Source of the DNA: Candidatus Omnitrophota bacterium
GTDB lineage: Bacteria; Omnitrophota; Gorgyraeia; Pluralincolimonadales; Pluralincolimonadaceae
Assembly: GCA_003141835.1 (NCBI GenBank)
Contig: PLNR01000007.1
Span: 3,639 to 67,638, forward strand
Length of the DNA: 64,000 nucleotides
Direction of reading: 5' to 3'
Part shown: positions 1-21,987 of the stretch, in pieces
Numbering within the stretch: position 1 is the first letter of the stretch
Layout: every line of letters begins with the position of its first letter
The notes under the pieces: model-generated
Told to the model about the DNA's origin: nothing
The model's input: only the letters and a program-made list of their open reading frames with translations
Databases searched by the model: none
Made by a program: the position numbers and the translations under genes

Positions 1-360
1 ATAATCCCGGATTCGTGCATCCTCCTGGATTATATGCTGAACCTCGCAACGGATGTCGCCATGCACATGGCCGTCTATCCGGAACGTATGATAGAGAACC
101 TTAACAGGATGAAGGGCCTTGTATTCTCGCAGAGGGTGCTTTTGGCGCTGATCGGCAAGGGGATAACAAGGAACGAGGCGTATGACATGGTCCAGAAATG
201 CGCGATGCGCGCCTGGAAGGAGAATGTCGAATTCAAGTCGATACTCATGGACGATATCGATGTCACGAAGTACCTGCCGCACGAGGAGATAGAGGCCTGT
301 TTTGACCTGGGCTATTATACCAAGAATGTCGACAGGATCTATAAAAGGTTAGGATTATGA
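1..360 (+). CDS. purB: adenylosuccinate lyase, C-terminal fragment (gene begins upstream of window)
   Basis: The reading frame is open from nt 1. The translation (...VYPERMIENLNRMKGLVFSQRVLLALIGKGITRNEAYDMV...) is a typical PurB C-terminus. It is directly followed by purC. Confidence 0.8.
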   Translation: MIPDSCILLDYMLNLATDVAMHMAVYPERMIENLNRMKGLVFSQRVLLALIGKGITRNEAYDMVQKCAMRAWKENVEFKSILMDDIDVTKYLPHEEIEACFDLGYYTKNVDRIYKRLGL

Positions 361-4960: not shown

Positions 4961-4972
4961 TCGAGGTGCAAA

Positions 4973-6373: not shown

Positions 6374-6374
6374 G

Positions 6375-8641: not shown

Positions 8642-9141
8642 CAAAAATGGCAAAGCCAAGGATCGCGGTCATATTAGGTTCCGATTCGGACCTTCCGGCG
8701 ATGGAGGAAGGGCTTAAGGTATTGAAGGATTTCAAGGTGCCCTTCCATCTCAAGATAATGTCCGCCCACAGGAGCCCGGCCCTGGTGCATGATTTTGCGA
8801 AGTCGGCTGAGAAGAACGGGATAAAGGTCGTGATAGCTGCCGCGGGCGGCGCCGCCCACCTGGCAGGCGTCATCGCGTCCATGACCAAACTGCCGGTCAT
8901 CGGCGTCCCGATGGAAACGCGCAGCCTTAACGGCATGGATTCGCTCTTCTCGACCGTGCAGATGCCTTACGGCGTCCCGGTCGCGACTATGGCCATAGGA
9001 AAATCCGGCGCCAGGAACGCCTCGATATTCGCGCTGCAGATACTCGGCCTGACCGACACTAAGATTGCGGGAGAGCTCAACGCTTTCAAAAAGAGGCTCG
9101 AGGCGGACGTGATAGCGAAGAACAAAAAACTGAAATTATGA
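8638..9141 (+). CDS. purE: 5-(carboxyamino)imidazole ribonucleotide mutase / AIR carboxylase catalytic subunit
   Basis: 167-aa ORF with the PurE pattern (IAVILGSDSDL, AAGGAAHLAGV). No purK is present in the window. Confidence 0.9.
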   Translation: MTKMAKPRIAVILGSDSDLPAMEEGLKVLKDFKVPFHLKIMSAHRSPALVHDFAKSAEKNGIKVVIAAAGGAAHLAGVIASMTKLPVIGVPMETRSLNGMDSLFSTVQMPYGVPVATMAIGKSGARNASIFALQILGLTDTKIAGELNAFKKRLEADVIAKNKKLKL

Positions 9142-9740
9142 CGGAAGTCATCCGCATAAGCGCTTCGAGGCCCAGCGCGGCTGCCGTAAAAAAGGCAGCC
9201 TCGGTCCTAAAAAAAGGGGGACTAGTGGCTTTCCCGACCGAGACGGTCTACGGCCTCGGCGCGAACCTCCTCGATAAAAAAGCGGTAGGGAAGGTGTACG
9301 AAATAAAAAAACGCCCGAGGAACAAGCCGCTTACGGTGCATGTTGCCGATACGGCCTCGGTAAGGAAGATAACGGGGAATATCCCTCTCCGCGCCGCGAA
9401 GCTTATAAAGAAGTATTGGCCGGGCCCGTTGACGGTCATATTGAAGGATAGGCGCGGGAAAAAGACCGGCTTCAGGATGCCGGACAATAAGATAGCTTTC
9501 GGCCTGATAAAAAAAGCCGGCGTCCCGGTCGTGGCGCCGAGTGCTAATATCTCTGGTAATAAACCGCCGACGGACGCCAAAGGGGTATTGCGCGACCTCG
9601 ACGGGAAGATCGACATTGTGATCGACGGCGGAAAGACGGTGATCGGCATCGAATCTACGGTAGTCGATATGACCGGACGGACGCCTAAGATATTGCGCGA
9701 AGGCGCGATATCAAAAGCGGAGATCGAGAAGATATGGTAA
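9138..9740 (+). CDS. tsaC: L-threonylcarbamoyladenylate synthase (YrdC/Sua5 family)
   Basis: 200-aa ORF with YrdC motifs (AFPTETVYGLGA, KKRPRNKPLTVHV). Confidence 0.85.
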   Translation: MTEVIRISASRPSAAAVKKAASVLKKGGLVAFPTETVYGLGANLLDKKAVGKVYEIKKRPRNKPLTVHVADTASVRKITGNIPLRAAKLIKKYWPGPLTVILKDRRGKKTGFRMPDNKIAFGLIKKAGVPVVAPSANISGNKPPTDAKGVLRDLDGKIDIVIDGGKTVIGIESTVVDMTGRTPKILREGAISKAEIEKIW

Positions 9741-10204
9741 AGTCGGTATTGATGGTATGCACCGGCAACTCATGCCGCAGCGTAATGGCCGAAGGGCTTT
9801 TGAAAAAATGGCTCAAAGACAACGGATGCGGCGATGTCAGGGTCGCCTCGGCCGGGATAGCGACCATCCCGGGCATGATGGCCAGCTCGAACGCGATAGA
9901 CGTGATGAAGAGGGAGCATGTCGACATTTCAAGCCACCGGGCCCAGGCCGTTTCCGAAAGATTAATAAATGAGTACGATCTCATACTTTGCATGGAGCCG
10001 GTGCACGTAGCGACGATAACCGGGATTTTACCCGGCGCGGAGCGGAAAACCTACTTACTTTTGGATTACGCCTATGACGGCGATGAAAAACCCAAGAATT
10101 TGCGGATCACCGACCCTATCGGGAAACCGAAAGAGGTCTATGAATCAGTGCTTATAACCTTAAAAGACGCGATAGAAAAGTTAGGGAGGAAGATATGCGG
10201 ATAG
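9734..10204 (+). CDS. low-molecular-weight protein-tyrosine/arginine phosphatase (YwlE-like)
   Basis: CX5R P-loop (CTGNSCRS) near the N-terminus and a DP loop (ITDPIGKP). It lacks the Cys82/Cys89 pair of LMW-PTP-type ArsC. Confidence 0.75.
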   Translation: MVKSVLMVCTGNSCRSVMAEGLLKKWLKDNGCGDVRVASAGIATIPGMMASSNAIDVMKREHVDISSHRAQAVSERLINEYDLILCMEPVHVATITGILPGAERKTYLLLDYAYDGDEKPKNLRITDPIGKPKEVYESVLITLKDAIEKLGRKICG

Positions 10205-10638
10205 CTATCGGCGCCGACCACGGCGGTTTCGATCTCAAGAGTAAGGTCATAAAATACCTCAAGTCGAAAGGCTATGAGATAAAGGATTTCGGGTGCTATG
10301 CGCCGGAGCCATGCGATTATCCCAAATACGGGTTCCTCGTCGCGGAAGCGGTCGGGAAGAAGAAATTCGCGCGCGGCATATTGATATGCAAAAGCGGCAT
10401 AGGGATGTCGATAGTCGCCAATAAGGCCCGCGGCGTGAGGGCAGCCCTCGTCTACAATATCGAGGACGCGCGCTTATCCCGCGAACACAACGACGCGAAC
10501 GTCGTGGTCTTCGGCTCGAGATCTATGAACACTTATAAGGTGAAGAAGATACTGGACGTGTGGCTTTCGACGAGGAGGCTCGGCGGGAGGCACTTAAGGA
10601 GAGTAAAGCAAATATCCGACCTGGAGGCGAGCCGATGA
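10195..10638 (+). CDS. rpiB: ribose-5-phosphate isomerase B
   Basis: 147-aa ORF with the RpiB/LacAB pattern ([33 protein letters not shown]). Confidence 0.85.
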
Positions 10639-11891
10639 ATAATCTTAAGAGGGTGGATCCGGAGATCTACGAGGCGATCGTAAACGAGACGCGCCGCGAG
10701 GAGGAGAATATAGAGCTCATTGCGAGCGAGAATTTCGTGAGCCGCGCGGTACTCGAGGCGCAGGGCTCGGTCCTTACGAATAAATATGCCGAGGGTTATC
10801 CGGCGGCGCGGTGGTACGGCGGGTGCGAGCACATAGATGTCGCGGAAAAACTGGCCATTGAGCGCGCGAAGGAGTTGTTTAAGGCCGATCACGCCAACGT
10901 CCAGCCGCACTGCGGTTCGTCTGCTAACATGGCGGTATATTTCTCGGCGCTAAACATGGGCGACACGGTCATGGCGCTCGACCTGGCGTGCGGCGGCCAC
11001 CTCACCCACGGCCACAAGGCCAATTTCTCGGGAAAATATTTCAACATCGTCCCTTACATGGTCGACCGCAAGACCGAGATGCTCGATTACGACGAAATAG
11101 AAAAGACAGCCCTGCAATGCAAACCGAAGATGATACTTGCCGGCGCGTCTAATTATTCACGGGCGATAGATTTTCGAAGGTTCCGCCAGATATGCGACAA
11201 AGTCGGGGCGTATCTCATGGTCGATATGGCGCATTTCGCCGGGCTTGTCGCAGCCGGGATACATCCGGACCCGGTCCCTTACGCGGAATTCGTCACGACC
11301 ACGACGCATAAGACGCTTCGCGGGCCGCGCGGCGGCATGATATTATGTAAAAAAGAGTTCGCAAGGAAGATAGATTCGATGGTATTCCCGGGCATCCAGG
11401 GCGGTCCGTTGATGCACGTTATAGCCGCGAAAGCCGTGTCATTCAAAGAAGCGCTCAAGCCCGAATTCAAGGAATACCAGAACCAGATATTGAAAAATGC
11501 GCGTGCCCTAGCAGGGGCATTCCAGAAACGCGGCTACAGAGTCGTCTCAGGCGGGACAGATAACCACCTCTTCTCGCTCGACCTCAATACCAGCAAGGGC
11601 ATAAGCGGCAAGGACGCGCAGGAAGCCCTCGACAAGGCCGGGATAACCGTAAATAAAAACACGATCCCGTACGATCCGAACCCTCCGGCGAAGCCGAGCG
11701 GGATAAGGATAGGCGTTCCGGCGGTGACTACGCGGGGCATGAAAGAAAAAGATATGGAAGAGATAGCCGGCCTCATCGACGAAGTTTTAAGCAATATTAC
11801 CGACGCGGCCGTCGCAGGACGCGTAAAGGAAAAAGTGCGCGCGGTGGTAAAGAAGTTCCCGCTCTATCGCGACCTTTTGAGCGAGGCTTAA
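10635..11891 (+). CDS. glyA: serine hydroxymethyltransferase
   Basis: Start chosen at the internal ATG 10635, which is preceded by GGAGG. The track ORF's upstream extension lies inside rpiB. SHMT motifs are present ([20 protein letters not shown]). Confidence 0.9.
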
Positions 11892-11892
11892 T

Positions 11893-12375
11893 ATGGTTAA
11901 AAAGAACGAGGTAAAAAGGAAGCGCCCGGACTGGGACGAATATTTCCTGGGAATAGCGGACCTGATATCCGAGCGTTCGACATGCCTGAGGCGGCAGGTC
12001 GGCGCGCTGATCGTAAAGAATAAAAGGATACTTACCACCGGCTATAACGGCACGCCGAGCGGCATTACGCACTGCGAGGTCACGGGCTGCTTAAGGGATA
12101 AGCTCAAGGTCCCGTCCGGCGAGAGGCATGAGCTCTGCCGCGGGCTGCACGCGGAGCAGAACGCCATAATCCAGGCCGCGCTCCACGGCGTCGATATCCA
12201 CGGCGCCGTTCTGTATTGCACTAACCAGCCGTGCTCTATCTGCGCGAAGATGCTCATAAACGCCGGCATAAAAGAGATAGTGATGCAAGCGGGCTATCCC
12301 GACGAGATGGCGAAAGAATTTTTTGAGGAGGCGGGCGTGGAGGTAAGGATGGCTAAGTCAGGAAAGAAGGTGTAG
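11893..12375 (+). CDS. deoxycytidylate (dCMP) deaminase, ComEB-like
   Basis: 160-aa ORF with cytidine/deoxycytidylate deaminase zinc motifs ([15 protein letters not shown]). Confidence 0.8.
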
Positions 12376-12376
12376 G

Positions 12377-12859
12377 GTGAAATGCCCATTTTGCGGTAAC
12401 GTAGAAGATAAAGTCATAGATTCCCGCATTTCGGCCGAGGGCGGCTCTATCAGGCGCAGGCGCGAGTGCCTCAAGTGCCAGAAAAGGTTCACGACATACG
12501 AGCGCCTCGAGGAACACCCCCTGATGGTGATAAAGAAGGACGGGCGGCGCGAACCGTTCGACCGCAAGAAACTGCTTTCAGGCATACTCAAGGCCTGCGA
12601 GAAACGCCCGGTACCGATGGACAGGGTCGAAGGGATGGTAGACGAGGTCGAGAGGATCATCCAGCGCAATTACGAGAAGGAAGTCTCCTCGACGGCGATA
12701 GGCGAATTCGTAATGAAAGAGCTGCATGACCTCGATGAGGTCGCCTACGTTAGGTTCGCATCGGTCTACCGCCAGTTCAAGGACATAAACCAGTTCATGA
12801 AGGAGTTGTCGTCACTTCTGAAAGAGGGGCAAAAGCCCGACGAGAAGAACAGATTTTAA
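12377..12859 (+). CDS. nrdR: transcriptional repressor NrdR
   Basis: GTG start. N-terminal zinc ribbon (CPFCG...CLKC) followed by an ATP-cone. Confidence 0.85.
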
Positions 12860-13704
12860 AGGAAGCGCTTTACTGGGAAAAGTCGGACGGGGCGGTCCAC
12901 TGCCTGCTATGCCCGCACGATTGCAAGATCGTTAACGGCGTCACCGGCGTCTGCGGCGTGCGGCGGAATATCGGCGGAAAGTTATACTCCCTCGTTTACG
13001 GGGAGACGACGTCGGTATCGCTCGACCCGGTCGAGAAGAAGCCCCTATACCATTTCCACCCCGGCGAAAATATACTCTCCCTCGGCACTAAAGGCTGCAA
13101 TTTCAAATGCCCGTTCTGCCAGAACTGGGCGATATCCCAGGACCTCGAAGTCCAGACCCGGAAGATAACGCCGCAATGGGTCGTCGATAAGGCCGGGGAA
13201 TGCAAGTCGTTCGGCATCGCCTACACGTATAACGAGCCGTTCATATGGTACGAGTTCGTCCTCGACACCGCGAAGCTCGCGAAAAAGAACGGGCTCGAGA
13301 ACGTCCTGGTCACGAATGGTTATGTGAACCCAAAACCGCTGGAAGAGATGCTCCCGTTCATCGGCGCGATGAACATAGACCTTAAATCCATCGACGACGA
13401 ATTTTACAGGAAATACTGCAAGGGCAGCCTCGATCCGGTCCTTTATACAATAAAAACGTCGGTCAAGGCGTGCCATGTGGAATTGACCAACCTGGTCATA
13501 CCCGGCTTGAACGATTCCGAGGAGGATTTCAAGCGCCTCGTCGATTGGATATACGATAATGCCGGCGCGGACGTGCCGCTCCATTTTTCGAGGTATTTCC
13601 CGTGCTATAAGCTCGACTTGCCTATCACCTCGAAGGAGACCCTCGAGAAGGCCTATAAAATAGCGAAGAAGAAATTAAGGAACGTCTATCTCGGGAATGT
13701 TTAA
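12853..13704 (+). CDS. AmmeMemoRadiSam-system-type radical SAM enzyme (AmrS-like); 5' boundary uncertain
   Basis: [11 protein letters not shown] radical SAM motif. The conserved N-terminal Cys-rich segment ([23 protein letters not shown]...) is in frame upstream of the track's GTG at 12958. No ATG/GTG/TTG exists between the in-frame stop at 12751 and that segment. ATT at 12853 is the only plausible initiator. Confidence 0.65.
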
Positions 13705-13724: not shown

Positions 13725-13754
13725 TTGACAATGTAACCGATATTTTGGTATTCT
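13725..13754 (+). promoter_or_regulatory. possible sigma70-type promoter for gdhA (TTGACA -35, weak -10 TATTCT)
   Basis: TTGACA at 13725-13730, then an 18-nt spacer, then TATTCT. It sits in the 190-bp gap before gdhA. Confidence 0.25.
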
Positions 13755-13894
13755 TATTGCACCTGCGATACAAAGCCGTATCGGAAGTTTTCCTGCAATA
13801 AAAACAGCGAGGCACATCTAGACAAAGACGTCTTCTGTTACATCCTATTATGCGTTGGGGGACGCATCCATTTTTTAAAAAAGGAGCCAGCCAA

Positions 13895-15235
13895 ATGCCA
13901 GCAAAGAAGATCGAAGATTTCATGGCGAAAGTCATGGAGAGAGACCCTGCCCAGCCCGAATTTTACCAGGCGGTGCAGGAAGTCGCGGAGTCCGTATGGG
14001 ATCATATAAGTGACAATCCCAAGTACCAGGAAGAGAAGATACTCGAAAGGATGGTCGAGCCCGAAAGGGTCTTCATGTTCAGGGTTCCCTGGACAGACGA
14101 CAAGGGCAACATCCAGATAAACCGCGGTTTTCGCATCCAGATGAACAGCGCGATAGGCCCGTATAAAGGCGGCCTTCGCTTCCACCCCAGCGTCAACCTC
14201 GGCATACTCAAATTCCTCGCTTTCGAACAGGTATTCAAGAACGCGCTTACGACGCTTCCCATGGGCGGCGGAAAAGGCGGCTCGGATTTTGACCCTAAGG
14301 GAAAGTCCGACTCCGAGGTCATGAGGTTCTGCCAGAGTTTTATGACGGAGCTCCAGAGGCATATCGGCCCGGACACAGACGTACCTGCCGGCGATATAGG
14401 CGTCGGCGGCCGCGAGATAGGGTTTTTGTTCGGCCAGTATAAGAGATTACGCAACGAGTTCACCGGAGTCTTGACCGGCAAGGGCCTGAAATGGGGCGGA
14501 AGCCTCATAAGGCCGGAAGCGACCGGTTACGGCTGCGTATATTTCGTAGAAGAGATGATGAAGACGAAGGGCCAGAGCCTCAAGGGCAAGACCTGCGCGG
14601 TATCCGGCGCCGGTAACGTCGCCCAGTATACCGTCGAGAAGCTCATCGATCTCGGCGCGAAAGTAGTCACGCTTTCCGACTCGAACGGCTTCATATATGA
14701 CGAGGGCGGCATCGACAATAAAGAATTGAGCTGCGTCCTCGAGCTTAAGAACGTCCGCCGCGGAAGGATCAAGGAATGCGCGAAAGAGTTCAAGTGCAAG
14801 TATTTCGATAACCAGCGCCCGTGGGGCATCAAGTGCGATGTCGCTTTCCCGAGCGCCACGCAGAACGAGATATCCGGCGAAGACGCGAAGATGCTGGTCA
14901 AGAACGGGTGCATCGCCATAGGCGAAGGCGCGAACATGCCTACGACGCCCGAAGGCATCAAGGTCTTCCAGAAGGCGAAAGTCCTTTATGCGCCGGGAAA
15001 GGCCTCGAACGCCGGCGGTGTCGCAACCTCGGGCCTCGAGATGTCCCAGAACAGTATGAGGCTATCATGGTCGCGCGCTGAGGTCGACAGCAAGCTGCAT
15101 GATATAATGATCGCGATACACGAGCAGTGCGTCAAGTACGGCAAAGAAGGCAATTACATAAACTACGTCAAGGGCGCTAACATAGCCGGCTTCGTAAAAG
15201 TAGCCGACGCTATGATAGACCAGGGCCTGGTCTAA
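13895..15235 (+). CDS. gdhA: NADP-specific glutamate dehydrogenase
   Basis: Start at the internal ATG 13895, preceded by AAAGGAG. GDH motifs are present (GGGKGG, GAGNVA). Confidence 0.9.
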
Positions 15236-15254
15236 CCGCCGAAGATAAGGCAGG

Positions 15255-15288
15255 CAAGGGCGTCCCTAAAGGGCGCCCTTGTTTTTTA
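15255..15288 (+). terminator. rho-independent terminator after gdhA
   Basis: Stem CAAGGGCG/CGCCCTTG (extendable, imperfect) followed by TTTTTT, 20 nt after the gdhA stop. Confidence 0.6.
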
Positions 15289-15297
15289 GGAGAGGAT

Positions 15298-17871
15298 ATG
15301 GTCAGCACCGGCTTTAAGGGCCTCGATAAGGTAATAACCGGATTAAGGGTGGGCGATAACGTCGTCTGGCAGATCGACGATATCAGGAATTACCAGGATT
15401 TCCTCGGTCCGTTCGTCAAGAAGGCCCTAGAAGAGAAGAAGGAAGTCGTATATATAAGGTTCGCGGACCATAAGCCCCTCATTGAGGCGGGAAAGGGCGT
15501 AAAGATATACAAGCTTGACGCCCACGAAGGGTTCGAATCGTTCTCCACCCAGCTTAACAGCATCATAAAGGAACACGGGGAAGGCGTCTATTACGTATTC
15601 GATTGCCTCTCCGACCTGCTCTCGGCGTGGGCGAACGACCTCATGATAGGCAATTTCTTCAAGATAACATGCCCGTACCTCTACGAGCTCAATACCATAG
15701 CCTACTTTTCAATACTGCGCAACAGGCACTCCTTTAAGACCATCGCCCGTATCCGCGAGATAACGCAGCTCCTGATAGACGTCTACGAATACGAGGGCAG
15801 GTACTATGTCCACCCTCTCAAGGTCTGGAACAGGTATTCGCCGACGATGTTCCTGCCTCACCTGATGAACAAGGACCGCTTTGTGCCGATAGCGAACAGC
15901 GTCGATACGGCGCGCCTCTTCTCTAATGTCCTCAAGAAAGGCACAAAGAGCACCCGCAGGATACTCGATTACTGGGACCGCCTATTCATAAAAGTGGAGG
16001 ACCTCGCCTCAAAGGCGGGCTCGCAGGACGAGAAGAAGGACATGATAAAGCAGCTCTGCAGGATAATGATCGCGCGCGAGGAAAAACTCCTTTCGCTGGT
16101 CGAAGAATATTACTCCCTCGAGGACCTGCTGGGCATCAAGTCAAAGATGATAGGCACGGGGTTCATCGGCGGCAAGGCCGTCGGCATGCTGCTCGCGAGG
16201 AAGATGCTCCTTAAGGAGCGTTCGCTGGGCATGGAGAAATATTTCGAGCCGCACGATTCGTTCTATGTGGGTTCCGACGTCTTCTACACTTATATAGTCG
16301 AGAACGGGTGGTGGAAACTCAGGATGGAGCAGAAGACGAAGGAGGGATATTTTTCCGTAGCCGAGGCGCTCCGCGAAAAGATGATGGGGGGGATCTTCCC
16401 GGAAGAGATAAAGGAGCAGTTCCGGCAGATGGTAGAATATTTCGGGCAGTCGCCCATAATCGTGCGTTCCAGCAGCCTGCTGGAAGACAGTTTCGGCAAC
16501 GCCTTTGCCGGGAAATACGAGAGCATATTCCTGGTGAACCAGGGTTCGCCGGAGGAGCGGTACAATAAATTCGTGGAGGCGGTGAGGCGTATCTACGCGA
16601 GCGCCATGAACAAGGACGCGCTGGCATACCGACTGCAGCGCGGCCTCGACCGGGCCGATGAACAGATGGCCCTGCTGGTCCAGAGGGTCTCGGGCGCGTA
16701 CCATTCGGATTATTTCTTCCCGGATATCGCGGGAGTGGGGATATCGTATAACACATACGTTTGGAACAAGGATATGGACCCCAAGGCCGGGATGCTAAGG
16801 ATAGTGGCGGGCCTGGGGACGCGTGCCGTCAACCGCGTAGAGGGCGACTATCCCAGGATAGTGGCCCTCGACATGCCCCTGGTCAAACCGCTGGCCGGCG
16901 CAAAAGATATGCAGAGGTTCTCCCAGCACGACCTTGATGTCCTTAACATTAAAGAGAACAGGCTCGAGGCAGTGCCGCTGAGGAAGTTATTGGCCGATAA
17001 GGTGGAGATCAGCCTTGAATATACCGGCGCCAGGGATTACGAGGCGGACCGCCGCACGGAAGAGGCGGGAAAAGCCGCCGAAGAGCACTGGATACTGACT
17101 TTCGACAAGCTTTTCTCCGGGACGTCATTCGGCGAGATGATGCAGAAGATACTCAAGCTCCTCGAAAAGCGTTACGGATACCCGCTCGACATCGAGTTCA
17201 CCGTGAATTTCAAGAAAGACGGGACATTCCAGATAAACCTGCTGCAATGCCGTCCGCTGCAGACGAAGGGCCTCGGAAAAAAGGTGGAGTTCCCGGAGGA
17301 TATCAAGAACGAAGATATCATCTTCCGTTCAAAGGGTTCTTTTTTGGGAGGGAATATATCACAGCCGATAAAGAGGCTGATATTCATCGACCCGCAAAAA
17401 TACAGCGCGCTGCCGATCTCTTCAAAGTACGATATCGCCCGCGCGGTGGGGGAGCTCAACAAGCTTATCAGTGACAGGGAAGCCCTGCCGTGTTTCCTTA
17501 TGGGCCCGGGCAGGTGGGGCACGACGACGCCGTCGCTCGGGGTCCCGGTCTCATTCTCCGAGATAAATAATATGGCAGTCCTGGGAGAGCTCGGGTTTTC
17601 CGGGGCCAATTTAACTCCCGAGCTTTCGTTCGGCACGCACTTTTTCCAGGACCTGGTGGAGACGAGCATATTCTATGTTGCGCTCTTCCCCGAGAGCGGG
17701 CAGACCCTCTTCAACCGCGGAATGATCGATTCCTGCCGGAACCTGTTAAAGAAACTGGCGCCTTCATATGGGAAATATGAGGACGTCATAAAGGTCTGCG
17801 AGCCTGCCAACAGGCAGATGCGCCTTGTCGCTGACATCGTCTCCCAGGATATCCTGATGTTCTTCCGATAA
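15298..17871 (+). CDS. multidomain protein: N-terminal KaiC/RecA-like domain lacking a P-loop + PEP synthase/PPDK-type ATP-grasp nucleotide-binding domain + degenerate His-less swivel-like C-terminus
   Basis: The N-terminal ~280 aa resemble KaiC-like ATPases (GFKGLDKVITGL, DxLS-like VFDCLSDLL), but the Walker A is replaced by GLRVGDNVVW. Residues ~285-620 carry PPDK_N/PEP-synthase ATP-binding signatures (IGGKAVGM, IIVRSSSLLEDSFGNAFAGKYES). The C-terminus has GPGRWGTTTPSLGVPV where a GGRTSHAAI phosphohistidine motif would be. Confidence 0.6.
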   Translation: MVSTGFKGLDKVITGLRVGDNVVWQIDDIRNYQDFLGPFVKKALEEKKEVVYIRFADHKPLIEAGKGVKIYKLDAHEGFESFSTQLNSIIKEHGEGVYYVFDCLSDLLSAWANDLMIGNFFKITCPYLYELNTIAYFSILRNRHSFKTIARIREITQLLIDVYEYEGRYYVHPLKVWNRYSPTMFLPHLMNKDRFVPIANSVDTARLFSNVLKKGTKSTRRILDYWDRLFIKVEDLASKAGSQDEKKDMIKQLCRIMIAREEKLLSLVEEYYSLEDLLGIKSKMIGTGFIGGKAVGMLLARKMLLKERSLGMEKYFEPHDSFYVGSDVFYTYIVENGWWKLRMEQKTKEGYFSVAEALREKMMGGIFPEEIKEQFRQMVEYFGQSPIIVRSSSLLEDSFGNAFAGKYESIFLVNQGSPEERYNKFVEAVRRIYASAMNKDALAYRLQRGLDRADEQMALLVQRVSGAYHSDYFFPDIAGVGISYNTYVWNKDMDPKAGMLRIVAGLGTRAVNRVEGDYPRIVALDMPLVKPLAGAKDMQRFSQHDLDVLNIKENRLEAVPLRKLLADKVEISLEYTGARDYEADRRTEEAGKAAEEHWILTFDKLFSGTSFGEMMQKILKLLEKRYGYPLDIEFTVNFKKDGTFQINLLQCRPLQTKGLGKKVEFPEDIKNEDIIFRSKGSFLGGNISQPIKRLIFIDPQKYSALPISSKYDIARAVGELNKLISDREALPCFLMGPGRWGTTTPSLGVPVSFSEINNMAVLGELGFSGANLTPELSFGTHFFQDLVETSIFYVALFPESGQTLFNRGMIDSCRNLLKKLAPSYGKYEDVIKVCEPANRQMRLVADIVSQDILMFFR

Positions 17872-17923
17872 AGGTCGACAAACCCGTTTTTTAGTAGTAA
17901 AATAACCGTCAAAACGATATCAG

Positions 17924-19210
17924 ATGAATATAAACGTACCCTATGGAAAAAAACAAGTAAGCGTATCTATCCACGAGAAGAACCTCTTGGGAGTCCTCTA
18001 CCCGAAGAGGTCCCATAGCAAGAAACCCGAATCCCGCATAATAAAAGAAGCTATCCTCAACCCGATGGGCTGTTGCCGGCTCAGGGACCTCGTCTCGCCC
18101 AAAGAGACGATCGCCATAGTCGTTCCGGACCTCGCAAGGGTATGCCCCCGTAAGCTCATACTTCCCATATTACTTGATGAGCTGAAAAAGGGCGGGATAA
18201 AGTACAAGGATGTGACGATCTTCATGGCGGTCGGGATGCTCACGCCCCCGACAAGGCAGGAGATCGAAGAAGCTTTCGGCAAAAAGATCGTCAAGCGGAT
18301 AAAAGTAAAGATCCACGACCCCTCGGATAGCTCAAACCTGACCAACCTGGGATATGTCGCCAACGGCGTCCCTGTAATAGTCAACAAAGAGATGCTTTAT
18401 AACGACCATGTCATTTCGATCGGCGTCATCGAGCCGCACCTGCACGCCGGTTTTTCGGGCGGGCCAGAGACGCTGAGCATAGGCATGGCAGGGGAAGAGA
18501 CGATAAGGTTCACCCATTCGCCGAAATTCATCGATAGGCCGGGCGCGAAACCCGGTGTTATCAAGGATAACCCCTTCCACCGCTGGATCATGGAATTCGC
18601 GTGCATAGCCAAGCTGAAATTCATAATAAACGTCGTGAATGACGACCTGGGGTGCACGATATTCGCGACCGCGGGAGAGCCACAGCTGGCTTTTTACAGG
18701 GGGATAGAACACGCGATGCTCCATTACAGGGTGAAGGTGGATGAGCCGGCCGATATAATCATCTGCGGAGTGGGCTGGCCTAAAGATGTCAACCTCTACC
18801 AGGCATCACGCGCCCTGACCTACCTGACCAACACGCAGAAACCCATCGTCAAAAGGGGAGGGCTTATACTCATCTCCGCGCGATGCGAAGACGGCATAGG
18901 TAAGGGGCTGGGGGAACGCAGGTTCTATGAAGCTATGGTCAGGGCGAAGAGCCCCGCCGAGATCGTAAAGAAGATGAAGAACAAGGCTTGTCTTGCCGGA
19001 GAACAGAGGGCGTATGCCGTGGCGAAATCCCTTCTTTTTGCCGATTGCGCGTTCGTCGGGACAAAATTCCCCGATATGGCAAAGAAGATGAAGATGTTGT
19101 CTTTTAAGGATATGGATGAGGCGCTGGAATATGCTTTTGCCACCCGCGGAAAGGACGCGAAGGTCTATGTCGTCCCGCACGCGCTCGTAACCCTGCCAAT
19201 ATCGCGATGA
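17924..19210 (+). CDS. larA: LarA-family nickel-pincer-dependent 2-hydroxyacid (lactate) racemase/epimerase
   Basis: 428-aa ORF. Strong colinear similarity to LarA is seen by eye (VPYGK, IEPHLHAGFSGG, GEETIRFTH, NLYQASRAL, CEDGIG). Confidence 0.8.
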   Translation: MNINVPYGKKQVSVSIHEKNLLGVLYPKRSHSKKPESRIIKEAILNPMGCCRLRDLVSPKETIAIVVPDLARVCPRKLILPILLDELKKGGIKYKDVTIFMAVGMLTPPTRQEIEEAFGKKIVKRIKVKIHDPSDSSNLTNLGYVANGVPVIVNKEMLYNDHVISIGVIEPHLHAGFSGGPETLSIGMAGEETIRFTHSPKFIDRPGAKPGVIKDNPFHRWIMEFACIAKLKFIINVVNDDLGCTIFATAGEPQLAFYRGIEHAMLHYRVKVDEPADIIICGVGWPKDVNLYQASRALTYLTNTQKPIVKRGGLILISARCEDGIGKGLGERRFYEAMVRAKSPAEIVKKMKNKACLAGEQRAYAVAKSLLFADCAFVGTKFPDMAKKMKMLSFKDMDEALEYAFATRGKDAKVYVVPHALVTLPISR

Positions 19211-21987
19211 CCCAGCCGGAGAAAGAATTAAAAAAGATCATCAAAGGCGACGTCCTCTTTGATGATATGGCCCGCTATGTCTATTCGTTCGGCGCCTCGA
19301 TCTATAAGATAAAACCAAAAGGCGTCGTCATACCTAAAGACAAAAATGATGTCGTCGAGCTCGTCAAATACGCTTCGCGCAACAATATCCCGCTTACCGC
19401 GCGCGGCGCGTGCACAAGCCTCGCCGGACAGGCGGTCGGCAACGGCATAATAATCGATTTCACAAAATACATGAACAAGGCCGTCGACTATAAAGGCGGC
19501 GATACGGTCACGGTCCAGCCCGGCATAGTCTACGGCGAATTGAATAAATTAACGGCCAAATACGGGAAATTTTTCCCGCCGGACCCGTCGAGCGGCGCTT
19601 ATTGCACGATAGGCGGGATGATCGCCGATAATTCCGGCGGCCCGCATTCGATAAAATACGGCACCGCAGCGGATTGGATCCTCGAGCTCGAGGTCGTCCT
19701 CGCTAATGGTGACAGGGTAACCCTGCTACCGCGCGCGAAGATAAAAAATATTTCGGCCCCGCTCGCGGAATTGCTTAAAGGGAACGAAGAGACCATAAAA
19801 AAGTACGCTCCCAAGGTCATGAGGAGCTCGAGCGGATACAATGTATACGATATCCTTAAGGGCGACATCGTAGACCTGGTGAAATTAATGGCCGGGTCCG
19901 AGGGGACGCTTGCGGTCATAACGGAAGCGAAGTTGAAATTGGCGCCGCTGCCGGGGTTCCGCGCCACGCTTTTACTTTCCCTGAAAGACCTCCGGTCGCT
20001 GGGCGATGCCGTAGCGGAATTGCGCAAGCTATCGCCGTCCGCTGTAGAGTTCATGGACGAAACTTTCATTAAACTTGCCGTCGAGGCGGAACCGAAGCTT
20101 ACAGACCTGCTCCGGAGCGCGTCAAAGGGAGTATTGCTCGTCGAACTGGAAGAGGCAAGCACGCCCGCCCTTGACGAGAAGATAGCTGCGGTAAAGGAAC
20201 GGCTCCTCGGAGAGGGGAAGTTTATATCCGGGATAAATGCCGCGAAGGATGCGGACGAGCAGGACCGCATCTGGGGAGTCAGGCGCGCGGCGGTCCCGAT
20301 CACTAACAGGATAAAAGGAAAGAAACGCCCGATACCGTTCATCGAGGACGCGATAGTCCCGCCGGAGAACCTCGGCGATTTTTTAATAGGCGCTTACGCG
20401 ATATTCGAGAAATACGGCGTAGAGGCGTGCGTCTACGGGCATGCCGGCGACGGCAACATGCATATACGGCCGCTCCTCGACATGAAGGACAAGGCCGACC
20501 TCGCAAAGATCGACAGCATAGCCGACGATTTTTACAGGATGGTCATCTCCCTCGGCGGCTCGACGACGGCCGAACACGGCGATGGAATCCTAAGGATTCC
20601 ATACCTCAAGAAACAGTTCGGCCCGCTTTACGATGTTTTCGTAAAGATAAAGGATATATTCGACCCGAAGGGCATTTTAAATCCCGGGAAAAAGATAGGG
20701 AAAGACGCCGGCATCACCCATGACCTCATCTATGACCCCGATATAAAATACGTCAGCACCAAGACGGTATTCGATTCCGGGAAGATAAGGGAGGAGATAG
20801 AGAGGTGCCACGCCTGCGGCCTTTGCAGGAACGTCTGCCCGGTGAATGTTAACCTGCCGCAGGAACTCGCTTCGCCGCGCGCGAAGGCGGCGATACTCAA
20901 GGCCATCATCACCGGAGAGCTGGACAAAAAAATTCTCCTCAGCCCCGCCATCAAGGAAGTCCTCGACCTTTGCATCAATTGCAAGTCCTGCCGCGTCGAA
21001 TGCCCGACAGGCGCCGACGTCTCAGGGCTTTGCGCCATGGCGAAAGAGATATATGTCAGGGAATGGGGAATTCCTTTCTCCCAGTCGATCCTCGAGAATA
21101 TGAGGCTCCTCGGGTCGGCCTCGGCCGAATTGACGTCCCTCGCCGATATCCTAATGTGTACCGCGTTCGGCAGGAGCCTGATGGAAGCATTCCTAGGCCT
21201 GGACAAGAGGCGAATCCTTCCCAGGCCGAGCGTGCCGCCGTTTGAAAAAAGAAAATTAAGCGGGAAGGGCGGCAGGAGGAAGGTCGCGTATTTTTATGGT
21301 TGCTATGTGAATTTCTTCAATGCGGAAGGCGAAGGCGCGGCCGTGCTTAAGGTGTTCGAGAAAAATGATATAGATGTCATCATCCCGCGCCAGAGATGCT
21401 GCGGTATCCCGAGCATCTCATCGGGCAACGCGGACGCGGTCAAGGCGGATATTGCCTATAACCTCAAATACCTCAATGAAGCTGTCAAGTCGGGATGCGA
21501 TATTGTGACCGGATGCCCGAGCTGCGGGCTCGCGATCAAGGAAGATTACCCGAGGATACTGTCTACACCCACGGCGCTCCTCGTCTCGCAGAAGACCTTT
21601 GATATCCATGAATACCTGTGGCTCTTGTTCAACGAGGGCGAGATGAACACCGATTTCAAATCCTCGCAGAAGACCGTCGTATTCCATGTGCCCTGCCACC
21701 TGAAGGCGCAGGAGATCGGCGACCTGCAGGAGTGCCTGGTCGAGCTGATCCCGGGGATACTGATAAAGAAGATCGCGGATTCCTGCTGCGGCATGGGCGG
21801 GACGTTCGGGCTCAAAAAGAAGAACTACGACTTATCGCTCGCCATCGGGGAAAGATTGTTCGACGCGATAAAAGAAGCGAAGGCCGACTACGTAGTCACA
21901 AGCTGCGGAGCGTGCAAGGCCCAGATATTCCAGGCCACTTCAGCGAAGGTCATCCATCCTATCGAGCTCCTCGCCGAATCTTATTGA
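19207..21987 (+). CDS. FAD-binding oxidase fused to 4Fe-4S dicluster + CCG domains (Dld-II / GlcD-GlcF fusion type D-lactate dehydrogenase-like)
   Basis: 926-aa ORF. The N-terminal half is an FAD-linked oxidase (GlcD-like). It contains CHACGLCRNVCP and CINCKSCRVECP clusters plus two CCG motifs (CCGIPS, SCCGMGG). ATGA overlap with larA. Confidence 0.8.
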   Translation: MTQPEKELKKIIKGDVLFDDMARYVYSFGASIYKIKPKGVVIPKDKNDVVELVKYASRNNIPLTARGACTSLAGQAVGNGIIIDFTKYMNKAVDYKGGDTVTVQPGIVYGELNKLTAKYGKFFPPDPSSGAYCTIGGMIADNSGGPHSIKYGTAADWILELEVVLANGDRVTLLPRAKIKNISAPLAELLKGNEETIKKYAPKVMRSSSGYNVYDILKGDIVDLVKLMAGSEGTLAVITEAKLKLAPLPGFRATLLLSLKDLRSLGDAVAELRKLSPSAVEFMDETFIKLAVEAEPKLTDLLRSASKGVLLVELEEASTPALDEKIAAVKERLLGEGKFISGINAAKDADEQDRIWGVRRAAVPITNRIKGKKRPIPFIEDAIVPPENLGDFLIGAYAIFEKYGVEACVYGHAGDGNMHIRPLLDMKDKADLAKIDSIADDFYRMVISLGGSTTAEHGDGILRIPYLKKQFGPLYDVFVKIKDIFDPKGILNPGKKIGKDAGITHDLIYDPDIKYVSTKTVFDSGKIREEIERCHACGLCRNVCPVNVNLPQELASPRAKAAILKAIITGELDKKILLSPAIKEVLDLCINCKSCRVECPTGADVSGLCAMAKEIYVREWGIPFSQSILENMRLLGSASAELTSLADILMCTAFGRSLMEAFLGLDKRRILPRPSVPPFEKRKLSGKGGRRKVAYFYGCYVNFFNAEGEGAAVLKVFEKNDIDVIIPRQRCCGIPSISSGNADAVKADIAYNLKYLNEAVKSGCDIVTGCPSCGLAIKEDYPRILSTPTALLVSQKTFDIHEYLWLLFNEGEMNTDFKSSQKTVVFHVPCHLKAQEIGDLQECLVELIPGILIKKIADSCCGMGGTFGLKKKNYDLSLAIGERLFDAIKEAKADYVVTSCGACKAQIFQATSAKVIHPIELLAESY

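What the first reader, a model, noticed from the sequence alone, without database searches (positions are those of the whole stretch)
15298..17871. Unusual fusion: P-loop-less KaiC/RecA-like domain + PEP-synthase-type ATP-grasp domain + swivel-like domain lacking the phosphohistidine
Seen in sequence:
- The N-terminal ~280 aa have the KaiC/RadA-like layout (GLD..I.GL ... DxLS), but the Walker A GxxGxGKT is replaced by GLRVGDNVVW.
- The central region carries clear PPDK_N/PEP synthase nucleotide-binding signatures (IIVRSSSLLEDSFGNAFAGKYES).
- The C-terminal segment resembles the PEP-utilising mobile domain (GR...LGVPV), but the catalytic His is absent.

Established knowledge: PEP synthase and PPDK require the phospho-His swivel and a TIM-barrel PEP/pyruvate domain.

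Inference: this is not a functional PEP synthase. It may be an ATP-grasp kinase or regulator with a pseudo-ATPase oligomerisation module. It lies immediately upstream of the larA / D-lactate dehydrogenase pair and may act in the same 2-hydroxyacid/pyruvate node.
Basis: partly seen in the sequence, partly recalled or inferred. Interest (0 to 1): 0.65.

Follow-up and report, generated by a model that had tools for sequence, protein, structure and literature searches.

The report
Glutamate-dehydrogenase-linked ATP-grasp enzyme, uncharacterised family
This gene encodes a three-domain ATP-using enzyme that is not a PEP synthase; it belongs to a large, unstudied family found next to glutamate dehydrogenase and other ammonium-assimilation genes in many bacterial phyla, so it probably marks an unknown step or control point in nitrogen metabolism.

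Summary
The 857-aa ORF at 15298..17871 (+) is real. Pfam finds only PPDK_N (aa 290-670, E 1e-51), with all ATP-site motifs invariant. The N-terminal ~200 aa give no sequence-profile hit. A confident AlphaFold model matches KaiC and FlaH (Foldseek E ~1e-11), and no Walker A is present, so the "P-loop-less KaiC-like" claim holds.

The "swivel-like domain lacking the His" claim does not hold. The C-terminal ~190 aa model confidently (pLDDT 91) but match nothing in the PDB or Pfam. They carry R739, E764 and H781 invariant in 117/117 homologous domains, and S777 in 116/117.

The proposed larA/lactate link is not conserved (0 of 77 other loci). The conserved partner is the upstream gene, glutamate dehydrogenase (GDH):
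- GDH lies within 8 kb in 30/78 loci.
- At least one ammonium-assimilation gene (GDH, GOGAT, GS, Amt, PII, NrpR, sigma54 activator) is present in 49/78.
- A sister clade without the KaiC-like domain has GDH directly upstream in 24/51 loci.

Best reading: an ATP-driven phosphotransferase, probably relaying through His781, coupled to GDH and ammonium assimilation, with a pseudo-ATPase assembly or sensor domain. The family is widespread (at least 584 species genomes), and I found no literature on it. The substrate is unknown.

The parts
13746..13761 (+). Candidate sigma54 -24/-12 promoter element (TGGTATTCTTATTGCA) upstream of gdh
   Evidence: It is the only match to TGGYAYN5TTGCW in the 64-kb window on either strand (expected 0.08). 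It is not general: only 2 of 78 homologous loci have such a site.
13850..15235 (+). Glutamate dehydrogenase (gdhA type). The true start is probably the ATG at 13895, which follows AAGGAG. This is the conserved genomic partner of the family.
   Evidence: Pfam ELFV_dehydrog E 5.8e-93 and ELFV_dehydrog_N E 1.1e-52. Sequence. It belongs to neighbour cluster 1, present in 30 of 78 loci.
15252..15287 (+). GC-rich hairpin followed by a U6 run (intrinsic terminator or attenuator) in the 62-nt gdh-target spacer, immediately before the target's RBS (AGGAG 15288-15292)
   Evidence: RNA fold dG -28.8 kcal/mol, z -3.5, with 0 of 200 shuffles as stable. Sequence.
15298..15897 (+). N-terminal P-loop-less KaiC/FlaH/Elp4-like RecA-fold domain (aa 1-200). 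Conserved motifs are G19-D20-N21, Y52/F55, G78-F79-E80, F101-D102(invariant)-x-L-S105, D114 and R179.
   Evidence: AF2 model pLDDT 89.9. Foldseek matches KaiC and FlaH at E 2e-11 to 3e-10. No Walker A in 47/47 members. Weak PAXNEB/Elp4 hits in 3/30 members (best E 3.7e-4). Conservation.
15898..16017 (+). Helical linker (aa 201-240), lower confidence and poorly conserved
   Evidence: pLDDT dips to 58-71 around aa 210-230, and helices cover 201-238. The consensus is mostly 'x' here.
16018..17307 (+). PPDK_N-type ATP-grasp core (aa 241-670), including the lead-in helices 241-285 that N-domain-less relatives share. Invariant residues are G291-G292-K293, R390-S-S-S393, E396-D397, G405-K406, E633, Q650-C651-R652.
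   Evidence: Pfam PF01326 E 9.8e-52. Alignment to the PEP synthase 8a8e motifs. Invariant columns. hhalign shows that only aa 241-285 of the N-terminal region is shared with the sister clade.
17308..17868 (+). C-terminal alpha/beta domain (aa 671-857) of unclassified fold, with motifs GPGRWG(T/S) and PELSxG(T/S)HFFQDLVE. R739, E764 and H781 are invariant and S777 is near-invariant. H781 (codon 17638-17640) is the first residue of a helix.
   Evidence: AF2 model pLDDT 90.9, pTM 0.89, helix at model residues 127-134 = aa 781-788. No significant Foldseek PDB hit. No Pfam or PDB sequence hit. Conservation across 117 domains: R739, E764, H781 117/117, S777 116/117. Codons checked.
17875..17903 (+). 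Sigma70-like promoter match (TCGACA-17-TAAAAT, 10/12) in the 52-nt spacer before the larA homolog
   Evidence: sequence. This is a consensus match only.
17924..21987 (+). Window-specific downstream pair, not part of the conserved system: a LarA-family 2-hydroxyacid racemase homolog (17924-19210) overlapping by 4 nt a GlcD/YdiJ-like FAD oxidase fused to FeS/CCG domains (19207-21987)
   Evidence: Pfam Lar_N/LarA_C and FAD_binding_4/FAD-oxidase_C/Fer4/CCG. No substrate-defining NCBIfam equivalog is reached; only the C-terminal FeS/CCG half passes a GlpC-subunit model (308.8 vs 278). Both genes are singletons among the 78 loci.

Best explanation
The ORF encodes a member of a large, uncharacterised family of ATP-dependent phosphotransferases. 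The family's conserved genomic partner is glutamate dehydrogenase (GDH) and, more broadly, the ammonium-assimilation machinery.

Proposed mechanism:
1. The PPDK_N-type ATP-grasp has an intact ATP site and binds ATP.
2. As in all characterised PPDK_N enzymes, it phosphorylates a histidine. Here the acceptor would be the invariant His781, which sits at the N-terminus of a helix in the C-terminal domain. That domain is tethered to the ATP-grasp by a low-confidence (probably flexible) linker.
3. The C-domain pocket (R739, E764, S777, H781) passes the phosphoryl group to a target in the glutamate / 2-oxoglutarate / ammonium node. My preferred target is a protein: GDH itself or another assimilation or regulatory protein. 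This would tune ammonium assimilation.
4. The P-loop-less KaiC/Elp4-like N-domain cannot bind ATP in the canonical way. It serves as a ring-assembly and/or effector-sensing input module.

Shown: the domain identities, the invariant residues, the absence of swivel and TIM-barrel domains, and the gene linkage.
Inferred: the His781 relay, the nature of the target, and the regulatory role.
For: ATP-grasp:
- PPDK_N hit E 1e-51 over the full model.
- K293, R390-SSS, E396-D397, G405-K406, E633 and Q650/R652 are invariant in 47 diverse members. They align to the PEP synthase motifs VRSSxxxED / FAGQ / DIEW / QSRP.

C-domain:
- It always follows the ATP-grasp in the 117 cases examined, including 66 proteins without the N-domain.
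- R739, E764 and H781 are 117/117; S777 is 116/117.
- H781 is at a helix N-terminus, and the first 10 residues of the C-domain model (aa 655-664, the junction) have low confidence.

Gene linkage, KaiC-N clade (one genome per species, more than 10 phyla):
- GDH within 8 kb in 30/78 loci, directly upstream on the same strand in 13.
- At least one of GDH, GltB, GltD, GS-I, GS-III, Amt, PII, NrpR or GAF-sigma54 activator in 49/78.
- Among the 46 loci with at least 3 kb on both sides, 29 have such a gene and in 25 it is directly adjacent.

Gene linkage, sister clade without the N-domain:
- GDH directly upstream on the same strand in 24/51 loci with upstream sequence, median gap 42 nt.

In the window, only gdh recurs among the neighbours.

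Hints of a regulatory role:
- Neighbours include PII, NrpR and sigma54 activators.
- The N-terminal modules are interchangeable.
- Some relatives add a pol-beta nucleotidyltransferase domain.
- A terminator-like hairpin lies between gdh and the gene.
Against: - No characterised PPDK_N enzyme phosphorylates a protein. The known ones (PEPS, PPDK, rifampin phosphotransferase, glucan water dikinase, PigC/RedH) act on small molecules or glucans (my own knowledge).
- High conservation of the whole protein across phyla (about 65% identity between Omnitrophota and Deltaproteobacteria) fits a metabolic enzyme at least as well.
- The His781 relay is untested.
- About 37% of loci show no nitrogen gene within 8 kb.
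Confidence: 0.35

Rival explanations
1. A small-molecule dikinase. The enzyme phosphorylates a metabolite of the glutamate / 2-oxoglutarate node, with ATP going to AMP + Pi through a phospho-His781 intermediate, in the same way that PEP synthase acts on pyruvate. The C-domain would be both the His carrier and the substrate-binding site. GDH would supply or consume the substrate.
For: - All characterised PPDK_N enzymes act on small molecules or glucans (my own knowledge).
- The ATP site is intact.
- The R-E-S-H constellation looks like a small-substrate active site.
- Sequence conservation across phyla is very high.
- GDH->T operons are tight, with a median gap of 42 nt.
- In this window gdh, the gene, a LarA-type 2-hydroxyacid racemase homolog and a YdiJ-like 2-hydroxyacid oxidase lie in a row, and all could converge on 2-oxoglutarate.
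Against: - There is no PEP/pyruvate-type TIM barrel or any other recognisable substrate domain.
- The partner varies in the KaiC-N clade (GOGAT, GS, Amt-PII, NrpR and sigma54 activators, not only GDH). That pattern is more typical of regulatory components.
- The variable N-terminal modules and the added NTase domains are typical of signalling proteins.
Confidence: 0.3
2. A non-catalytic or only ATP-sensing regulator or scaffold. The protein binds ATP or an effector and controls GDH or nitrogen regulators by binding. There is no phosphoryl relay, and the conserved His has a structural or ligand-binding role.
For: - The N-domain is a pseudo-ATPase of the Elp4/5/6 kind, whose members act as scaffolds.
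- No canonical phospho-His swivel domain is present.
Against: Every catalytic ATP-grasp motif is invariant across about 50 diverse members and in the sister clade. The same is true of the Arg, Glu and His in the C-domain (Ser in 116 of 117). This degree of conservation argues for catalysis.
Confidence: 0.15
3. One reading: the protein functions with the downstream larA / D-lactate dehydrogenase pair in a lactate, 2-hydroxyacid and pyruvate node.
For: The genes lie on the same strand with a 52-nt gap to larA, and larA overlaps the oxidase gene by 4 nt.
Against: - The LarA homolog and the oxidase are found in 0 of 77 other loci and in none of the sister-clade loci.
- A sigma70-like promoter match lies between the gene and larA.
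- The LarA homolog is below the NCBIfam cut-off for lactate racemase, and the oxidase matches YdiJ/GlcD/GlpC families rather than a D-lactate dehydrogenase model.
Confidence: 0.05
4. An ordinary or diverged PEP synthase or PPDK.
For: Database names such as 'phosphoenolpyruvate synthase' and 'PEP/pyruvate-binding domain-containing protein', and the PPDK_N domain.
Against: There is no PF00391 and no PF02896. NCBIfam PEPS and PPDK equivalogs are matched only over about 110-150 aa, at 10-70 bits against cut-offs of 450-1060.
Confidence: 0.01

Closest known systems
PEP synthase / pyruvate phosphate dikinase (PEP-utilising enzyme superfamily)
   Same: It shares the PPDK_N-type ATP-grasp nucleotide-binding domain with all signature motifs (GGK, VRSSxxxED, FAG, D/ExE, QxR). 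It therefore probably shares the first half-reaction, ATP-dependent phosphorylation of a histidine.
   Different: It lacks the swivelling phospho-His domain (PF00391) and the PEP/pyruvate TIM barrel (PF02896). The ATP-grasp is preceded by a pseudo-KaiC domain and followed by an unclassified 190-aa domain with its own invariant His. The genomic context is glutamate dehydrogenase and nitrogen assimilation, not gluconeogenesis.
Rifampin phosphotransferase (Rph) and prodigiosin ligases PigC/RedH
   Same: These are PPDK_N enzymes recruited to substrates other than pyruvate. There are partial NCBIfam hits over the ATP-grasp (E 1e-10 to 1e-13). They are precedents for new substrate modules attached to this ATP-grasp.
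   Different: Those enzymes keep a canonical C-terminal swivel His domain; this protein does not. Scores are far below their cut-offs (38-48 bits against 999-1350).
KaiC / archaeal FlaH (ArlH) RecA-superfamily ATPases
   Same: The N-domain has the same fold (Foldseek E 2e-11 and 2.7e-10, prob 1.00). It has the STG..GLD lead-in motif and a Walker-B-like invariant Asp (D102).
   Different: There is no Walker A and the P-loop is deleted. The acidic pair after strand 2 is missing (YIRFA instead). No Pfam KaiC/ATPase hit is obtained. It is a pseudo-ATPase.
Elongator Elp4/Elp5/Elp6 (PAXNEB, Iki1) pseudo-ATPase ring subunits
   Same: These are RecA/KaiC-like folds that have lost their nucleotide-binding motifs and act as hexameric ring scaffolds (my own knowledge). 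Three of 30 N-domains hit PAXNEB (best E 3.7e-4) and one hits Elong_Iki1.
   Different: The hits are weak and occur in a minority of members. Those proteins are eukaryotic or archaeal tRNA-modification scaffolds and are not fused to an enzyme. Ring formation here is untested.
Covalent-modification and phosphorelay regulators of nitrogen assimilation (GlnE, GlnD, nitrogen-PTS Enzyme I-Ntr)
   Same: This is a functional analogy only. Those are enzymes encoded near, or acting on, GS, PII and nitrogen regulators, with N-terminal sensor domains. EI-Ntr uses a phospho-His relay. Some relatives of this family add a pol-beta nucleotidyltransferase domain, the fold class of GlnE and GlnD.
   Different: There is no sequence or fold relationship to those proteins. 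The phosphoryl donor would be ATP through an ATP-grasp rather than PEP. The target is unknown.

Membership tests
PEP synthase / PPDK (PEP-utilising enzymes) | PPDK_N ATP-grasp nucleotide-binding domain | tested here: met
   PF01326 E 9.8e-52, aa 290-670, model positions 4-325 of 328. The motifs are invariant.
PEP synthase / PPDK (PEP-utilising enzymes) | Swivelling phosphohistidine domain (PF00391, G-G-x-T-S-H-A-A-x-x-A-R motif) | tested here: not met
   No Pfam hit at E<=10 for this protein or for 30 homologous C-domains. The profile search of the PDB finds no PPDK, PEPS or EI chain. Foldseek with a confident model finds no significant match.
PEP synthase / PPDK (PEP-utilising enzymes) | PEP/pyruvate-binding TIM-barrel domain (PF02896) | tested here: not met
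   No hit. The protein ends 187 aa after the ATP-grasp.
PEP synthase / PPDK (PEP-utilising enzymes) | Score above the curated NCBIfam equivalog cut-off | tested here: not met
   Best hit NF004881 at 69.8 bits against 883; TIGR01418 at 49.9 against 739.75; TIGR01828 at 10.6 against 843.
Rifampin phosphotransferase / PigC-RedH | ATP-grasp plus C-terminal swivel His domain; score above the NCBIfam cut-off | tested here: not met
   Only the ATP-grasp is matched, at 38.5 bits against 999 (Rph) and 48.5 against 1300 (PigC). No swivel domain is present.
KaiC / RecA-superfamily ATPases (PF06745) | RecA-like alpha/beta fold | tested here: met
   Foldseek matches KaiC at E 2e-11 and FlaH at E 2.7e-10 (TMt 0.64), with 827 PDB hits at E<=1e-3, using a model of pLDDT 89.9.
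KaiC / RecA-superfamily ATPases (PF06745) | Walker A P-loop GxxxxGK[ST] | tested here: not met
   Absent in 47/47 family members. Only two residues separate strand 1 from helix 1 in the model.
KaiC / RecA-superfamily ATPases (PF06745) | Walker B acidic residue at the end of a hydrophobic strand | tested here: inconclusive
   YVFD102 is invariant and lies at the end of strand 97-103. Equivalence to Walker B was not verified by a residue-level structural alignment.
KaiC / RecA-superfamily ATPases (PF06745) | Match to the family's sequence profile | tested here: not met
   No Pfam hit at E<=10 for this protein or 30 homologs. No PDB KaiC, RadA or RecA chain is found by the profile search.
Elp4/5/6-type pseudo-ATPases | RecA-like fold without nucleotide-binding motifs, forming a hexameric ring | tested here: inconclusive
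   The fold and the loss of motifs are met. PAXNEB is hit by 3/30 members (best E 3.7e-4) and Iki1 by 1/30. Oligomeric state cannot be tested with these tools.
Uncharacterised 'PEP/pyruvate-binding domain-containing protein' family, ~857-aa type (KaiC-like N-domain + PPDK_N + C-domain) | Full-length collinear similarity, with the invariant N-domain D102 and C-domain R739/E764/S777/H781 | tested here: met
   There are 120 listed hits at 62-100% identity and 100% coverage, 58 representatives with the N+C architecture, and invariant columns as listed.
Uncharacterised 'PEP/pyruvate-binding domain-containing protein' family, ~857-aa type (KaiC-like N-domain + PPDK_N + C-domain) | Genomic association with glutamate dehydrogenase or ammonium-assimilation genes | tested here: met
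   In the window, gdh ends 62 nt upstream on the same strand. In the family, GDH is present in 30/78 loci and any nitrogen-assimilation gene in 49/78.

The most novel reading that the evidence does not exclude
The enzyme could couple ATP hydrolysis directly to GDH-catalysed ammonium assimilation. By analogy with pyruvate -> PEP, it would phosphorylate the enol form of 2-oxoglutarate through phospho-His781. Displacement of the phosphate by ammonia would give the 2-iminoglutarate / enamine intermediate, which GDH then reduces. This would amount to a high-affinity, ATP-driven 'GDH pathway', an alternative to GS-GOGAT in anaerobes. It would explain why the conserved operon partner is GDH, and why GOGAT or GS genes replace GDH as neighbours in some lineages. 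A second, less radical novel reading is that this is the first protein kinase built on a PPDK_N ATP-grasp, serving as the covalent switch for GDH or PII in organisms that lack GlnD and GlnE.
Probability: 0.07. Interest if true: 0.9.

Novelty: new variant of a known kind. Interest (0 to 1): 0.68.

Why it matters
Glutamate dehydrogenase, GS-GOGAT, Amt and PII form one of the best-studied metabolic nodes in microbiology. Here a large, highly conserved enzyme family sits in operons with these genes in hundreds of species across more than ten phyla, and I found no description of it in eight full-text literature searches. The family has at least 8000 database proteins, at least 584 species genomes in one clade, and at least 579 metagenomic relatives in a sister clade.

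If it is a regulator, it would be a new type of post-translational control of ammonium assimilation in anaerobes. If it is a metabolic enzyme, it would add an ATP-dependent reaction at the 2-oxoglutarate / glutamate node.

It also provides:
- a bacterial example of a KaiC-derived pseudo-ATPase fused to an enzyme;
- a 190-aa domain with no detectable structural relative in the PDB and an Arg-Glu-Ser-His constellation (Arg, Glu, His invariant);
- a correction to the current annotations ('phosphoenolpyruvate synthase', 'PEP/pyruvate-binding'), which mislead metabolic reconstructions of Omnitrophota, Planctomycetota, Syntrophia and others.

Tried and rejected
- **Pfam, NCBIfam and PDB sequence searches of the N- and C-terminal pieces** found nothing. 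This covered single sequences, profiles, and 30 members scanned individually at E<=10.
- **A full-length structure model** was not made. Both prediction jobs went to the separate N- and C-domains so that each could be fold-searched alone.
- **NTase-fold idea for the C-domain.** GPGRWGTTTPSLGVPV loosely resembles the G-S-x-x-R-G-E...S-D-x-D motif, and one source names a sister-clade protein 'Nucleotidyltransferase'. I rejected it: no NTase family hit for 30 members and no NTase among the Foldseek hits. The NTP_transf_2 hits in the ~1060-aa relatives lie in an extra domain beyond the C-domain.
- **Sigma54 control as a general feature** was rejected. The window has a very good -24/-12 site upstream of gdh, but only 2 of 78 loci have one.
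- **The N-domain profile search of the 5.8-billion-protein database** returned almost only truncated fragments of the same family, so it showed no informative alternative architectures.
- **The alternative N-termini of the ~770-aa relatives** are not related to the KaiC-like domain (hhalign).
- **Literature.** Eight full-text searches combined PPDK_N, pyruvate-binding domain, PEP synthase(-like), KaiC(-like), ATP-grasp, pseudo-ATPase, glutamate dehydrogenase, gdhA, NrpR, nitrogen and Geobacter. None found a paper on this family.
- **Other nitrogen genes in the window.** None is present apart from gdh.

Full report
**1. The observation**

An 857-aa ORF occupies 15298..17871 (+), exactly as stated. 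AGGAG lies 6 nt upstream of the ATG, and homologs start at the same residue.

Pfam finds one domain only: PPDK_N (PF01326), aa 290-670, E 9.8e-52, covering model positions 4-325 of 328. NCBIfam PEP synthase, PPDK, Rph and PigC models are matched only over the ATP-grasp. Scores are 10-70 bits against cut-offs of 450-1350. PDB sequence hits are likewise confined to the ATP-grasp of PEP synthases. No swivel domain (PF00391) and no PEP/pyruvate TIM barrel (PF02896) is present, so this is not a PEP synthase.

**2. N-terminal domain**

Sequence methods see nothing:
- no Pfam hit at E<=10 for the 290-aa piece;
- no Pfam KaiC/ATPase hit for 30 homologs scanned individually;
- nothing from a profile search of the PDB.

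An AlphaFold2 model built from a 30-sequence alignment is confident (pLDDT 89.9, pTM 0.84). Foldseek against the PDB returns KaiC (7s65_B, E 2e-11) and archaeal FlaH (4yds, E 2.7e-10, TMt 0.64), with probability 1.00 and 827 hits at E<=1e-3. The KaiC-like fold is therefore real.

No family member has a Walker A motif anywhere (0 of 47). In the model, strand 21-26 is followed after two residues by helix 29-45, so the P-loop is deleted. The acidic pair that follows strand 2 in KaiC-type ATPases is replaced by YIRFA.

The domain is not decaying. G19-D20-N21, Y52, F55, G78-F79-E80, D102 (invariant), S105, D114 and R179 are conserved at 90% or more across members only 32-45% identical overall. Three of 30 members weakly hit PAXNEB/Elp4 (best E 3.7e-4) and one hits Elp5/Iki1. 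These are the classic RecA/KaiC-like pseudo-ATPases that form rings.

The KaiC-like part is aa 1-200. Helices 201-240 are a poorly conserved linker. Helices 241-285 belong to the core, because relatives without the N-domain share them.

**3. ATP-grasp**

These residues are invariant in 47 diverse sequences and in the sister clade:
- G291-G292-K293
- R390-S-S-S393, E396-D397
- G405-K406
- E633 (with D/E631)
- Q650-C651-R652

They align with the PEP synthase motifs VRSSxxxED, FAGQ, DIEW and QSRP. From my recollection of the PPDK literature, these correspond to the Lys, Arg, Glu, Gln and Arg that bind ATP and Mg2+. That correspondence is recalled, not tested here. The domain looks catalytically competent.

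**4. C-terminal domain**

- The last ~190 aa have no Pfam hit, either alone or in 30 homologs at E<=10.
- A profile search of the PDB finds no PPDK, PEPS or Enzyme I chain.
- The AlphaFold2 model is confident (pLDDT 90.9, pTM 0.89).
- Foldseek against 350,542 PDB chains finds nothing better than E 0.087 and TM 0.33.

The domain also does not lack a catalytic His. Across 117 C-domains, 66 of them from proteins without the KaiC-like N-domain, conservation is as follows:

| Residue | Conservation |
|---|---|
| R739 | 100% |
| G748 | 100% |
| E764 | 100% |
| S777 | 99% |
| G779 | 100% |
| H781 | 100% |

H781 lies in the motif PELSxG(T/S)HFFQDLVE and is the first residue of a helix (model residues 127-134 = aa 781-788). 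R739 and E764 lie in strands 732-740 (near its C-terminal end) and 761-765. The first ten residues of the model, at the junction with the ATP-grasp, have low confidence (mean pLDDT 61), which is compatible with a flexible tether. A G-(T/S)-H at a helix N-terminus recalls known phosphohistidine sites, but this is an inference.

**5. Family and architectures**

The protein belongs to a very large family. At least 8000 database proteins hit it. The best full-length ones (~857 aa) are 62-96% identical and are named only 'PEP/pyruvate-binding domain-containing protein' or, wrongly, 'phosphoenolpyruvate synthase'. The closest come from Omnitrophota MAGs.

The exhaustive search of 1.84 billion cluster representatives gives 895 representatives at E<=1e-30. 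Among the best 150 (plus one extra double form, P0009), 58 have N-domain + core, 58 have the core only, and a few are double forms. The core-only forms are ~600 aa, or ~770 and ~1060 aa with unrelated N-termini. For example, the 1472-aa Geobacter sp. OR-1 protein is [core]+[N-domain+core]. Some ~1060-aa relatives add a pol-beta nucleotidyltransferase domain after the C-domain. The unit 'ATP-grasp + C-domain' is therefore constant, and the N-terminal module is exchangeable.

**6. Genomic context**

A scan of one genome per species found at least 584 genomes with a relative. The 80 best loci span Omnitrophota, Planctomycetota, Desulfobacterota/Syntrophia, Bacillota, Spirochaetota, Actinomycetota, Acidobacteriota, Elusimicrobiota, Margulisiibacteriota, Gammaproteobacteria and Methanoregula. 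I called ORFs in +-8 kb and clustered all neighbours without prior labels.

| Neighbour cluster | Loci |
|---|---|
| Glutamate dehydrogenase | 30 of 78 |
| GltD-like | 13 |
| Amt | 10 |
| PII | 9 |
| GAF-sigma54 activator | 8 |
| NrpR | 7 |
| GltB | 6 |
| GS-I | 6 |
| GS-III | 5 |

GDH is by far the most frequent neighbour. It lies directly upstream on the same strand in 13 loci, with gaps of 5-235 nt. The identities of GltD-like, Amt, PII, the GAF-sigma54 activator and NrpR were confirmed by Pfam. GDH and GS-III rest on precomputed Pfam labels at example loci and on homology to the window's Pfam-confirmed gdh. GltB and GS-I were assigned from size, sequence inspection and gene order.

At least one of these genes is present in 49/78 loci. 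Among the 46 loci with at least 3 kb on both sides, 29 have one and in 25 it is directly adjacent. GDH is typically one gene among thousands, so this is far beyond chance. The arrangements differ between lineages (GDH->T; GltB-GltD->T; PII-Amt...sigma54 activator->T; T with convergent NrpR-GDH; GS->T), so this is not inherited synteny.

The sister clade without the KaiC-like domain shows the same link even more specifically. In metagenome contigs, GDH is within 8 kb in 36/75 loci and directly adjacent in 30. Among the 51 loci with upstream sequence, GDH lies directly upstream on the same strand in 24, with a median gap of 42 nt. The gene is often followed by a second paralog (GDH->T->T').

In the window itself, gdh is the only neighbour that recurs. 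The LarA homolog and the FAD/FeS oxidase occur in none of the other 77 loci.

**7. Local transcription signals in the window**

- The 62-nt gdh-target spacer holds a strong hairpin followed by U6 (dG -28.8 kcal/mol, z -3.5), then the RBS. There is no room for a promoter. Transcription of the gene probably depends on read-through from gdh at a reduced level, or on an internal promoter.
- A sigma70-like match (10/12) lies between the gene and larA.
- The only sigma54 -24/-12 match in the 64-kb window lies upstream of gdh, but such sites are not general in the family.

**8. Interpretation**

Shown:
- a three-domain protein made of a pseudo-KaiC domain, an intact PPDK_N ATP-grasp, and an unclassified C-domain with an Arg-Glu-Ser-His constellation (Arg, Glu and His invariant, Ser in 116 of 117);
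- membership of a widespread family;
- GDH and ammonium-assimilation genes as the conserved genomic partners.

Inferred: the ATP-grasp phosphorylates H781, and the phosphoryl group is passed to a target at the glutamate / 2-oxoglutarate / ammonium node.

I slightly prefer a protein or regulatory target (0.35), for these reasons:
- the neighbours include regulators;
- the N-terminal modules are exchangeable, in the manner of sensor domains;
- some relatives add an NTase domain;
- a terminator lies after gdh;
- no small-molecule substrate domain is recognisable.

A metabolite dikinase is nearly as likely (0.30), because every characterised PPDK_N enzyme acts on small molecules or glucans and the family is very highly conserved. 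A non-catalytic sensor or scaffold (0.15), the larA/lactate link (0.05) and a true PEP synthase (0.01) are less likely.

**9. Novelty**

The ATP-grasp chemistry is of a known kind. The accessory domains and the biological context appear undescribed: eight full-text searches found nothing. I rate it a new variant of a known kind, with interest 0.68. It would surprise specialists in nitrogen metabolism, and it is directly testable.

Noticed in passing
window 13746-13761 (+): TGGTATTCTTATTGCA is the only match to the sigma54 -24/-12 pattern in the whole window (expected 0.08). It lies about 135 nt upstream of the likely gdh start and overlaps a sigma70-like match at 13725-13754. Only 2 of 78 homologous loci have a comparable site.
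   Followed up: partly
window 13850-13897: The mechanical ORF for gdh starts at 13850, but AAGGAG followed by the ATG at 13895 (MPAKKIEDF...) is the more likely start. A hairpin plus T-run (13850-13877) was also flagged in this leader.
   Followed up: no
window 17924-21987 (+): A LarA-family racemase homolog and a 926-aa FAD oxidase fused to FeS/CCG domains overlap by 4 nt, so they are probably one operon. The LarA homolog's best NCBIfam hit is malate racemase LarAH6 (348 bits against a cut-off of 500). The oxidase's best hit is the D-2-hydroxyglutarate dehydrogenase YdiJ (399 against 1350). The substrate is unassigned. Together with gdh, the cluster could converge on 2-oxoglutarate. No larB, larC or larE genes were looked for.
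   Followed up: partly
L004 8001-12419 (P0009, Geobacter sp. OR-1) and P0006-P0018: These are double-length relatives (~1470-1500 aa) built as [ATP-grasp+C-domain]+[KaiC-like N+ATP-grasp+C-domain]. In Geobacter sp. OR-1 the gene is flanked by a 1149-aa alpha-amylase-family gene and glucose-6-phosphate isomerase, which is a carbohydrate context rather than a nitrogen one.
   Followed up: no
L087 2780-10234; L116, L117, L124, L127, L130, L133, L137, L138, L141, L154, L159, L163, L164: Sister-clade operons have the form GDH -> T -> T', with two tandem paralogs. In L087 these are 973 aa and 1077 aa, and the second carries an extra C-terminal pol-beta nucleotidyltransferase domain. This suggests a heteromeric or two-step system.
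   Followed up: partly
P0328 (508 aa) and P0300 (461 aa): These are isolated cases of the KaiC-like N-domain on proteins whose precomputed Pfam domains are GAF (PF13185/PF01590) or PF07221, instead of PPDK_N. They may be real fusions or assembly or gene-calling artefacts.
   Followed up: no
L011, L020, L027 (Planctomycetota loci): The arrangement GS - PII - Amt (minus strand) followed by GAF-sigma54 activator -> T (plus strand) recurs. The enhancer-binding protein lies directly upstream of the family gene on the same strand.
   Followed up: no
window 357-13704 (+): A long co-directional run of housekeeping genes precedes gdh: purC, purS/L, purQ, purF, purM, purD, purE, a Sua5/YrdC-like gene and an LMW phosphatase (Pfam), a radical-SAM protein (Pfam), and, from their translations only, likely SHMT, dCMP deaminase and NrdR genes.
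   Followed up: partly
P0388 (Desulfacinum sp., 776 aa): One source names a sister-clade member 'Nucleotidyltransferase protein', although it has no detectable NTase domain. Names in the databases for this family (PEP synthase, pyruvate kinase, nucleotidyltransferase) are inconsistent and unreliable.
   Followed up: partly
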